Shown here piece after piece: positions 47,216-50,200 of a stretch of DNA of 64,000 nucleotides; within the stretch, counting starts at the first letter, position 1, and each line of letters opens with the position of its first letter. The DNA lies in assembly GCF_058153355.1 (NCBI RefSeq), contig NZ_JBLWLY010000002.1, one strand, 5' to 3'. The position numbers are program-made. Origin of the DNA: a plasmid.

Positions 47216-50200
47216 TAACGAAAGTATCTTAGCGGGCATGAAAATGGCAAATAACGGTTAAAAATCGTGGCGTTGACACTGCTGACGAGGGCTTATCCCT
47301 GTCCGCCGCTGACACCACGTATACCAGCCGCTGTGGGCCACCCGGAGCACGCGGCACATTGCCTTGATGCTGAACCCAGCCTGATGTTTTTCAATAAAGA
47401 CATACTTCATTTCAGGCGCTTCGTAAAGTATGTCGCGGCCTTTTGGAGGATAGCCAGTTCCTCTGCCTGCTCCGCCAGTTGCCGCTTCAGGCGGGCATTT
47501 TCAGCGGCCAGTTCACTTTCACGCTCAGACGAGGTCATCTGTTGCTGCAGTTTGCTGCGCGTAAGCGTCTTATCAGGACCGTCTGGCAAATTCCCGATGC
47601 TTTGGACAAAGTATCCACCACTAAATTAATAGTGGGTGATAAAAATGTCAGATATACAAAAAAATGCCTCTCCGGGAAGTAATGCCAGTCAGTTAAGCAA
47701 CTGACTGGCTCTTTTTCGGGGCTGTGGGGTATTTCCAGGGCCTCTCCTTTACCACTCTCGGGAAGGCCCTTTCCCTTCTTGTCGGTAATTTCACAAGTTG
47801 TCCCATACTTGCAAGATCGCGCATCAGCTCCGGTATACGTCCCGGTGAAGCGCCCTGCAATGTCATCAGCATTCTCATCACCATTCCGCATGATTCTGAG
47901 AAACTCAGTTGATTCGGCCAGTAACCTTTCAGATGTTCCGCCATTTTAATCATCTGATATCTCACCAGATTATAAGCCAGTAAGACACCCCACAGCTCTT
48001 GCTCCACAAGCTCCGGCTTTTTACTTCTCAGCGTCAGCCTGCTCAGTTGCATCGTCTGTTTTATCTCCCTGTATCCCAGTTCGATTTCCCAGCGATGACT
48101 GTACAGATCCGCCATTTCTCCTCCGGGGAAGCGCATGGCGTCCGTCATCGACGTCAGCAGATGGCAGACTTTTCCTTTGCGCGTCACGGTCAGCAGGCGG
48201 GCTGTCACTTCATTTCCCAGTCCCGGCCACTTTTTTCGTGCCTGCGGGCTGGTTTTCAGCTTCACCAGATGATCGCCTTTACCCAGTTTTCTGATCTCTT
48301 CATATTGCGCTCCCTTTCTGAGAGGTATCATCCAGTGGCGGTGTTCTCCCGCCAGGCTCCAGGCATTTAACAGTCCCAGTGAGTAATAACCTTTATCCAT
48401 TAACGTCAGAGTGTTATCGCCGGTTTGTTCTATAAGTTGCTCAGCAAGCTCATTTTCGCTGTTCTTCATCGTGCCGAAGGCTGCAGCCGTCAGCAGATGG
48501 CTGGTCAGTTCCATCTGGCAGACCATTTTGACCTGCGGGTAGAGCGCCGGGTTCCCGGCATGTGTCTGGCGGGGGAAGGCTGCATCGTTCTCTGGTGTAT
48601 CCGGTGTGCGCCAGAACACACCATCGATGGCCAGCAGGGTCAGGCCGCACCAGTGCGGATGCGGCGTGGCGTTATGCCAGAGCTGCGCTGTTTTCGTGAA
48701 CACGCGGCGGACAGCCTCACTTCCCAGGCGCTGGCGGGCCTGAATAACGGCACTGGGGGCAACGAAGGGGCGATTGCCCGGCAGCATGATGTCCAGGCGA
48801 TTCACAATCTGGTGAAGAGGTTCTTTACGCTCAAGCGCCATGCCAACAATACACCAGACCATCATTTCGAGGGGAAGACGGCGCTTGCGTAGCGTTACAG
48901 TACCTGATTCGGCAAGGCAACGAGAGATGAGTTCGGGGTCGAGGTAATCCCCCAGAGAAGTCAGTGGGTTACGCAGAGAATCGTAACGGGATACCAGATC
49001 AAGAGCCTGTCCAATGTGCATAAAAAAATCCGGAAACAAGTGAGCGTTTCCGGATTCTTACACAGCCACTGGATCGGTCAACTGATCCTTAACTGATCGG
49101 CATTACTCTCCGGGAAGGCCTAAAGGGTGCCTGAATTATCCTCCTGAATTCAAACAACGACTCATAGAAGCATCATTCCAGCCAGGTGTTTCAATTTCCA
49201 GACTGGCCCTGGACAATGGTATTAATGCCAATCTGTTGTTCAAATGGCGTCAGAAATGGCGGCAGGGGAAGATAAAATTGCCATCATCAGAATCAGGCAG
49301 AGAATCTCAGTTAATTCCTGTCACTATTGATGCCCAACTCCCAACTGCTCCGGCTAATGAGCCACTGACCGCAAGACCGTCAGTAACACCGGAAATACAC
49401 AGCATCTCCTGTGAGATTACGTTCAGAAACGGCACCCTTCGGTTGAACGGGGCAGTGAATGAAAATCTGCTGTCCTTGCTTATACAGGAGCTGAGACGGT
49501 GATATCTCTCCCTGCAGGTTCGCGTATCTGGCTGGTTGCAGGTATCACCGATATGCGAAATGGCTTTAACGGCCTGGCCTCAAAAGTTCAGAACGTCCTG
49601 AAGGATGACCCGTTCTCCGGACACCTGTTCATCTTCCGCGGACGCCGGGGTGACCAGATAAAAGTGCTGTGGGCTGACAGCGACGGACTGTGCCTCTTCA
49701 CCAGACGCCTGGAACGGGGCCGCTTCGTCTGGCCGGTCACCCGTGACGGCAAGGTGCACCTTACTCCGGCCCAGTTATCCATGCTTCTTGAGGGCATCGA
49801 CTGGAAACACCCGAAACGAACGGAACGCGCTGGCATCCGCATATAACCCGTTGTAAAGTGAGGATATGGACACCTCACTTGCTCATGAGAATGCCCGCCT
49901 GCGGGCACTGTTGCAGACGCAACAGGACACCATCCGCCAGATGGCGAAATACAACCGCCTGCTCTCACAGCGGGTGGCGGCTTATGCTTCCGAAATCAAC
50001 CGGCTGAAGGCGCTGGTTGCAAAACTGCAGCGCATGCAGTTCGGTAAAAGCTCAGAAAAACTTCGTGCAAAAACCGAACGGCAGATACAGGAAGCACAGG
50101 AGCGAATCAGCGCTCTTCAGGAAGAAATGGCGGAAACGCTGGGTGAGCAATATGACCCGGTACTGCCATCTCCCCTGCGCCAGTCTTCAGCCCGTAAACC

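What the first reader, a model, noticed from the sequence alone, without database searches (positions are those of the whole stretch)
47645..49117. IS4 inserted in IS66 tnpA with a clean 12-bp target-site duplication
Seen: IS4 termini at 47680 and 49105, with CTCTCCGGGAAG present at 47668-47679 and 49106-49117. The insertion lies 35 nt into the tnpA coding sequence (MSDIQKNASPG|...). An unambiguous duplication argues for in-situ transposition rather than recombination, and it inactivates copy A independently of the intron.
Basis: seen in the sequence. Interest (0 to 1): 0.3.

Follow-up and report, generated by a model that had tools for sequence, protein, structure and literature searches.

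The report
IS4 insertion inside IS66-family tnpA
An intact copy of the well-known E. coli insertion sequence IS4 has jumped into the first gene of another mobile element on a Shigella/EIEC-type virulence plasmid, leaving the usual 12-bp target duplication; this is real but ordinary.

Summary
Window 47680-49105 is a complete 1426-bp IS4. It differs by 1-3 nt from annotated E. coli copies, has an intact transposase on the minus strand and 16/18 terminal inverted repeats. It is flanked by exact 12-bp direct repeats CTCTCCGGGAAG (47668-47679 and 49106-49117).

Removing IS4 and one repeat restores a sequence 603/603 identical to the uninterrupted copy B, and identical to a third copy in an unrelated public plasmid contig. 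The insertion lies 35 nt into tnpA, in codon 12.

I added three points:
- 12 bp is the commonest duplication length among 12 independent complete IS4 copies (range 11-13 bp).
- The site fits IS4's target preference. It ranks 7th of 125,056 positions in the window, in the observed orientation only.
- A terminator-like hairpin just inside IS4 faces the incoming tnpA transcript, so the insertion is probably polar on tnpB and tnpC.

Qualifications:
- The host is an IS66-family (ISCro1-like, 2469 bp) element, not IS66 itself.
- Copy A is a recombinant hybrid without its own 8-bp duplication.
- Inactivation is inferred, and copy B could supply the proteins in trans.
- The exact junction was not found in the E. 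coli complete-genome set or PLSDB.

This is routine insertion-sequence nesting and of low interest.

The parts
47668..47679 (.). Left copy of the 12-bp target-site duplication CTCTCCGGGAAG
   Evidence: D11
47680..49105 (-). Complete IS4, 1426 bp; the strand given is that of its transposase gene, opposite to tnpA
   Evidence: 99.9% identity over 100% of its length to annotated IS4 in E. coli; 1-3 nt differences from eight fetched copies; it is the only IS4 in the window
47680..47697 (.). IS4 terminal inverted repeat at the end distal to the transposase start (IRR by the ISfinder convention): TAATGCCAGTCAGTTAAG
   Evidence: (I1)
49088..49105 (.). IS4 terminal inverted repeat at the transposase-proximal end (IRL): reverse complement TAATGCCGATCAGTTAAG, 16/18 match to the other end
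47693..49039 (-). IS4 transposase ORF, intact: 448 aa from the TTG start used by PGAP, or 442 aa from the ATG at 49021
   Evidence: NF033592 IS4 family transposase, 304.5 bits against a cut-off of 115; 448/448 identical to the product annotated as WP_000483766.1 in L070
47684..47709 (+). Terminator-like hairpin inside IS4 (11-bp stem, then TCTTTTTC) facing transcripts that enter from tnpA
   Evidence: (I13); MFE -21.3 kcal/mol for 47676-47725. Function is inferred
49054..49081 (-). Promoter-like site (TTGACC-16-TG-AAGAAT) upstream of the IS4 transposase start
   Evidence: consensus match only, with 2 sites found against 1.9 expected in shuffles
49106..49117 (.). Right copy of the 12-bp target-site duplication
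47645..47679 (+). 5' fragment of tnpA (35 nt); it now reads MSDIQKNASPG+SNASQLSN* into IS4
49118..49502 (+). 3' remainder of tnpA (385 nt) with no start codon; its stop overlaps the tnpB start (49499)
47561..51255 (+). Copy A, left part, of the 2469-bp IS66-family element (element positions 1-2257 once IS4 and one duplication copy are removed), ending at the group II intron in tnpC
   Evidence: 2257/2257 identical to copy B; TnpB and TnpC family matches
52607..55075 (-). Copy B: complete uninterrupted IS66-family element with an 8-bp duplication GGTGAAAC; it serves as the empty-site reference
   Evidence: 100% identical to L082 5017-7485
54957..54968 (-). Unoccupied IS4 target 12-mer in copy B tnpA
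   Evidence: same target-profile score as the occupied site

Best explanation
A functional-looking IS4 transposed directly into codon 12 of tnpA in an IS66-family (ISCro1-like) element on a pINV-type virulence plasmid. Its DDE transposase made cuts staggered by 12 bp in the target, and repair of the gaps duplicated CTCTCCGGGAAG. The site was chosen because it matches the arm of IS4's preferred target that lies next to the IRR end: an A-run about 15 nt from the joint, followed by a GCCTC...G core. The insertion truncates TnpA to 11 native residues. It is probably also polar on tnpB and tnpC, through a terminator-like hairpin just inside IS4. It appears to be the most recent event in a nest of mobile elements. 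Shown here: the anatomy, the duplication, the empty sites and the fit to the target profile. Inferred: the cut-and-paste chemistry (by analogy with studied IS4-family members), the polarity and the loss of autonomy.
For: - Exact 12-bp repeats abut intact IS4 ends.
- The empty site is restored perfectly against copy B (603/603) and against an independent identical element in GCA_047897835.1 (L082).
- IS4 is complete, and its transposase is identical to an annotated E. coli protein.
- Duplication lengths in 12 independent complete IS4 copies are one of 11 bp, six of 12 bp and five of 13 bp. The literature gives 10-13 bp for the IS4 subgroup (PMC2266710).
- A weight matrix built from 59 independent flanks in other genera ranks the real site 7th of 125,056 positions. 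Its score is 12.8 against a training median of 11.1, and -3.0 for the opposite orientation.
- PMC2266710 reports 'spectacular' target-arm specificity for some IS4-subgroup elements.
- Other IS4 copies in E. coli matched about 20 nt beyond the IS4 end of this junction.
- Copy A's left part and copy B show 0 differences in 2257 bp, and only copy A carries IS4, so the insertion postdates their last common ancestry.
- The junction was not found in 5,426 E. coli genomes or 72,556 plasmids.
Against: - No orthologous pre-insertion allele (same outside flank, no IS4) was found. Every empty-site comparator is therefore a paralogous or unrelated copy.
- The site lacks the T-run and strong hairpin seen in 10 of 12 other targets. 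Its MFE is -4.4 kcal/mol, which is unremarkable.
- No donor IS4 lies in the window.
- Polarity and loss of function were not measured.
- The ten E. coli loci used for right-arm and duplication data were chosen because their flank resembled this one, so they are a biased sample.
Confidence: 0.92

Rival explanations
1. IS4 did transpose into this tnpA sequence, but in another copy of the element or on another replicon. The interrupted allele then reached its present position by homologous recombination or gene conversion between IS66-family copies, not by an insertion at this position on this plasmid.
For: Copy A is demonstrably recombinant. Its 8-bp flanks do not match (TGCTGCGC and GCACTAAC). 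It shows 0/2257 differences from copy B before the intron and 7/212 after it. Its right flank recurs uninterrupted at 4020-4027. PMC6778807 uses the same logic, mismatched 8-bp flanks, to infer recombination between IS66 copies.
Against: No other tnpA::IS4 allele was found in either collection or in the two contigs that encode the identical TnpA. This model needs an extra step and has no supporting observation.
Confidence: 0.06
2. Assembly misplacement. IS4 really interrupts one copy of the element, but the assembler could not tell which. The sequence flanking the site is identical in copies A and B for 119 bp on one side and 2138 bp on the other.
For: The flanks of the two copies are perfectly identical. 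pINV plasmids are rich in insertion sequences.
Against: Nothing in the sequence suggests a misjoin, and the platform and read length are unknown. Even if this were true, the core observation (IS4 with a 12-bp duplication in this tnpA) would stand.
Confidence: 0.03
3. The 12-bp repeat is a coincidence, and IS4 arrived by recombination between two IS4 copies, or is a relic.
For: None beyond the general possibility.
Against: My arithmetic gives a chance identity of about 6e-8. The empty site is restored exactly, 12 bp is the commonest IS4 duplication length, and there is only one IS4 in the window.
Confidence: 0.005

Closest known systems
IS4 of Escherichia coli (IS4 family, IS4 subgroup; transposase InsG)
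   Same: 1426 bp length, TAATGCC... ends with 16/18 inverted repeats, a single transposase ORF identical to an annotated E. coli protein, an 11-13 bp duplication (12 bp here), and a preference for an A-run plus GC-rich core target (PMC2266710).
   Different: Nothing about the element itself differs. Only the location is unusual: the insertion lies inside a coding sequence that matches just one arm of the usual palindromic, terminator-like target.
IS66 family, ISCro1-like elements (tnpA-tnpB-tnpC organisation; IS679 and ISCro1 relatives)
   Same: The host element has tnpA, tnpB and tnpC above the NCBIfam cut-offs, GTAAGCG...CGCTTAC ends and 8-bp duplications (copy B GGTGAAAC, L082 CACCGGAC). 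PGAP labels close relatives 'IS66-like element ISCro1 family transposase'.
   Different: Its TnpA is the short 139-aa type, whereas the ISCro1 copy in EIEC pINV has a 225-aa TnpA. The best full-length match in PLSDB is only 95.7-95.8% identical (E. albertii). It is not IS66 of Agrobacterium.
Nested insertion-sequence clusters of Shigella/EIEC pINV virulence plasmids
   Same: The window carries mxi-spa and icsA at about 99% identity to S. sonnei and EIEC pINV. It also carries IS21-like, IS3H-like and IS66-like elements and a group II intron stacked in one another.
   Different: This particular arrangement (IS3H|copy A::IS4, intron::copy B) was not found in PLSDB or the E. coli complete-genome set.

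Membership tests
IS4 (the element) | About 1426 bp with near-identity to reference IS4 copies | tested here: met
   1426 bp; 99.9% identity over full length; 1-3 nt differences from eight E. coli copies
IS4 (the element) | Imperfect 18-bp terminal inverted repeats beginning TAATGCC (subgroup end signature -AATR-) | tested here: met
   16/18 match; signature given in PMC2266710 Table 1
IS4 (the element) | A single ORF encoding an IS4-family DDE transposase | tested here: met
   NF033592, 304.5 bits against a cut-off of 115; intact and identical to WP_000483766.1
IS4 (the element) | Target duplication of 10-13 bp | tested here: met
   12 bp exact; 11-13 bp in 12 independent copies; 10-13 bp in PMC2266710
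IS4 (the element) | Insertion into the preferred target (A-run, GC-rich pseudo-palindrome, T-run) | tested here: inconclusive
   The IRR-side arm fits strongly (rank 7 of 125,056). The far arm lacks the T-run and the hairpin is weak (-4.4 kcal/mol), as at two other intragenic sites
IS4 (the element) | Transposition activity | not testable with these tools
   Needs a mating-out or papillation assay
IS66 family (host element) | Three consecutive genes tnpA, tnpB and tnpC | tested here: met
   NF047595 88.9 bits (cut-off 74), NF033819 127.8 bits (cut-off 50), NF033517 479.3 bits (cut-off 180) for copy B
IS66 family (host element) | Terminal inverted repeats GTAAGCG...CGCTTAC | tested here: met
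IS66 family (host element) | 8-bp target duplication | tested here: met
   Copy B has GGTGAAAC and L082 has CACCGGAC. Copy A has no matching flanks, so this is not met for copy A, which is a hybrid. 8 bp is reported for IS66 in PMC6778807
IS66 family (host element) | All three gene products needed for transposition, which is the basis for saying the insertion 'inactivates' the copy | not testable with these tools
   I recall this from Han et al. 2001 (J Bacteriol 183:4296, on IS679). The paper could not be read here

The most novel reading that the evidence does not exclude
The first 40 nt of this short-TnpA IS66-family lineage mimic one arm of IS4's terminator-like target. That would make the lineage a standing hotspot where IS4 repeatedly knocks out the element, a form of antagonism between insertion sequences. 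It would also imply that one target arm is enough for IS4 site selection.
Probability: 0.1. Interest if true: 0.3.

Novelty: already known. Interest (0 to 1): 0.1.

Why it matters
It matters little beyond bookkeeping. It documents one recent, apparently private IS4 transposition on a pINV-type virulence plasmid, which could serve as a lineage marker. It shows that copy A of the IS66-family element has at least two independent lesions. It also provides a clean example of IS4 inserting at a half-site of its terminator-like target. It changes no current view of IS4, the IS66 family or pINV biology.

Tried and rejected
- **Exact junction in public collections.** I searched 5,426 complete E. coli genomes and 72,556 PLSDB plasmids for the exact IS4/tnpA junction and found none.
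- **Orthologous pre-insertion allele.** I searched for the IS3H flank joined to an uninterrupted copy A. No place covered 80% or more of the query.
- **Source genome.** One genome-contig scan with the IS4 end gave 67 loci in other Enterobacterales but not the source genome.
- **Identical TnpA elsewhere.** A look-up of the exact 139-aa TnpA found only two contigs, both in a different context and without IS4.
- **Han et al. 2001.** I tried to read the paper on the requirement for IS66-family genes; it is not held.
- **EIEC pINV as ancestral state.** I considered L001 and L002, but they carry a different ISCro1 element at a different position in the intron, and a diverged second intron.
- **Hairpin strength as the determinant.** I considered that hairpin strength explains the site choice. 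I rejected this for this site, because its MFE is within background.
- **Scans not run.** I did not run a metagenome scan for the junction, because no outcome would have changed the verdict.

Full report
**1. Observation**

The + strand reads ...ATGTCAGATATACAAAAAAATGC CTCTCCGGGAAG | TAATGCCAGTCAGTTAAGC ... CTTAACTGATCGGCATTA | CTCTCCGGGAAG GCCTAAAGGG.... The 12-mer lies at 47668-47679 and 49106-49117. The only other copy in the window is at 54957-54968 on the minus strand. Shuffles expect 0.15 matches even with one mismatch allowed, and none of 100 shuffles gave three. The repeat cannot be lengthened in either direction, because the neighbouring bases differ. The insert is exactly 1426 bp, and its ends match 16/18 as inverted repeats.

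**2. What the insert is**

- The 1426 bp match annotated 'IS4-like element IS4 family transposase' loci at 99.9% over their full length. 2,479 of 5,426 complete E. coli genomes hold a near-complete copy.
- It differs by 1-3 nt from eight fetched E. coli copies.
- The minus-strand ORF 47693-49039 is intact. It scores 304.5 bits on NF033592 against a cut-off of 115. It is 448/448 identical to the protein annotated as WP_000483766.1.
- A promoter-like site lies just upstream of the ORF at 49081-49054. This is a consensus match only.
- It is the only IS4 in the window.
- IS4 lies in the opposite orientation to tnpA. The end at 47680 is therefore IRR in the ISfinder convention.

**3. What it is inserted into**

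- The flanks belong to a 2469-bp IS66-family element with GTAAGCG...CGCTTAC ends.
- Copy B (52607-55075, minus strand) is complete. Its TnpA (139 aa), TnpB (115 aa) and TnpC (523 aa) all score above the NCBIfam cut-offs. It has an 8-bp duplication, GGTGAAAC.
- PGAP labels close relatives 'IS66-like element ISCro1 family'. In an E. albertii plasmid it annotates the same ATG and a 139-aa TnpA.
- The ATG is at 47645 and IS4 follows nt 35, in codon 12. The product now reads MSDIQKNASPG followed by SNASQLSN and a stop.
- Joining 47300-47679 to 49118-49600 gives a sequence 603/603 identical to copy B.
- A third, 100% identical 2469-bp copy lies in a public F-type plasmid contig (GCA_047897835.1, L082). 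It has its own duplication, CACCGGAC, and its 12-mer is unoccupied.

**4. Is 12 bp normal for IS4, and why this site?**

I scanned species-representative genomes with the 30-nt IS4 end. This gave 67 loci in other Enterobacterales and 59 independent flanks.

- *Target profile.* The flanks show an A-run at -20 to -17, a C-rich block at -12 to -9, and G at -4 and -1.
- *Rank of the real site.* A weight matrix from these flanks scores the real site 12.8, above the training median of 11.1. That places it 7th of 125,056 positions in the IS4-free window. The same site in the opposite orientation scores -3.0.
- *Duplication lengths.* Twelve independent complete copies gave one duplication of 11 bp, six of 12 bp and five of 13 bp, one of the 13-bp cases carrying a mismatch. 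Three of these copies came from the scan and nine from E. coli.
- *Nature of the targets.* Ten of the twelve empty sites are strong hairpins flanked by A- and T-runs. Several lie directly after the stop codons of genes such as lpxM, finO, ompX and ogrK, so they look like terminators.
- *This site.* Two other sites lie inside genes. They and this one fold weakly (-1.5, -4.5 and -4.4 kcal/mol). This site and the tamA-tamB one also share the AAAAATGCCTC arm next to IRR. This is therefore a half-site insertion.
- *Caveat.* The E. coli loci were chosen because BLAST extended into their flank, so they are biased towards that arm. The 59 flanks from the scan are not biased in this way.
[quoted passage not shown] From memory, not re-read here, the classical consensus is AAA-N20-TTT (Mayaux et al. 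1984).

**5. Mechanism and consequences**

- *Shown.* Intact ends, an exact duplication, perfect empty sites and a fit to the target profile.
- *Inferred from the family* (IS10, IS50 and IS231A are cut-and-paste elements, PMC2266710). The transposase excised IS4 from a donor outside the window. It joined the 3' ends to target phosphates 12 bp apart, and gap repair produced the repeats.
- *Consequences, inferred.* TnpA is lost after residue 11. The remaining 385 nt have no start codon. The tnpA stop overlaps the tnpB start. An 11-bp-stem hairpin followed by TCTTTTTC at 47684-47709 faces the incoming transcript. tnpB and tnpC of copy A are therefore probably cut off from their promoter.
- From memory (Han et al. 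2001, not readable here), all three genes are needed for IS679 transposition. Copy B is intact and identical, so it could complement in trans.

**6. Context**

- The window is a pINV-type Shigella/EIEC virulence plasmid. Its mxi-spa and icsA regions are about 99% identical to S. sonnei and EIEC plasmids.
- Copy A's tnpC carries a group II intron in the sense orientation, running from 51256 (GTGTG...) to 55556. Rfam finds its D1-D4 region and its 3' catalytic-core region.
- Copy A is a hybrid. It is 2257/2257 identical to copy B before the intron, but differs at 7 of 212 positions after it. Its 8-bp flanks do not match.
- Copy A's right flank recurs uninterrupted at 4020-4027 inside another IS66-family relative. 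Mismatched flanks of this kind are taken as the mark of recombination between IS66 copies (PMC6778807).
- Copy A's left part and copy B have not diverged at all, and only copy A holds IS4. IS4 is therefore most likely the latest event in the nest.

**7. Distribution**

The junction was absent from the E. coli complete-genome set and from PLSDB. So was the outside junction of copy A. No orthologous pre-insertion allele is available, and the source replicon is not in those collections.

**8. Verdict**

This is a textbook IS4 insertion in a heap of insertion sequences on a virulence plasmid. The kind of feature is already known and its interest is low. The remaining uncertainties are where the insertion happened, whether the assembly placed it in the right copy, and the functional consequences. 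None of these can be tested with the tools available here.

Noticed in passing
window 47561-51255 and 55557-55768: Copy A of the IS66-family element is a recombinant hybrid. It shows 0/2257 differences from copy B before the intron and 7/212 after it, with the switch exactly at the intron site. Its 8-bp flanks do not match (TGCTGCGC and GCACTAAC).
   Followed up: partly
window 51256-55556 (+), interrupted at 52607-55075: A group II intron sits in tnpC of copy A in the sense orientation (Rfam RF01999 at 51329-51445, RF00029 at 55479-55556). Its reverse transcriptase/maturase ORF is split by copy B, with an 8-bp duplication GGTGAAAC at 52599-52606 and 55076-55083.
   Followed up: partly
window 4020-4344 (-/+) and 55769-56123: Fragments of a second, 74-79% similar IS66-family element. 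The flank of copy A's right end (GCACTAACTGTAGTC...) recurs uninterrupted at 4020-4027 (-), which gives an empty site for that older insertion.
   Followed up: partly
L070-L079 (E. coli IS4 loci), L019, L025, L039: IS4 copies sit mostly in terminator-like hairpins flanked by A- and T-runs, several directly after stop codons (lpxM, finO, ompX, ogrK). Ten of twelve empty sites fold at -12 kcal/mol or below, against a background mean of -2.75.
   Followed up: partly
window 4705 (+), 31743-31746 (-), 13813 (-), 54957-54968 (-): Other unoccupied positions score as high as or higher than the occupied site on the IS4 flank profile (15.7, about 14, 13.2 and 12.8). They are candidate future IS4 targets.
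   Followed up: no
L082 5017-7485 (GCA_047897835.1, contig ABXYKR010000031.1): A 100% identical 2469-bp copy of the element, with duplication CACCGGAC, lies next to a 1363-aa serine-protease autotransporter and an F-type tra region. The element is therefore recently mobile across replicons.
   Followed up: partly
L002 8442-9272 compared with window 52452-52606 and 55076-55771: EIEC pINV plasmids carry the same junction between the intron's 3' part and the IS66-family right end. There it is uninterrupted at the copy B site, but the homology stops 147 bp further on and an ISCro1 element (225-aa TnpA) follows. The adjoining ltrA is only about 74% similar.
   Followed up: partly
window 45249-47560: Upstream of copy A lie two ORFs of 390 and 266 aa (45249-47218) that probably form an IS21-like istA/istB pair, then a fragment of an IS3H-like element (47278-47560, 98.9% identical to Shigella plasmid copies). 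Copy A's left end is inserted in that fragment.
   Followed up: no
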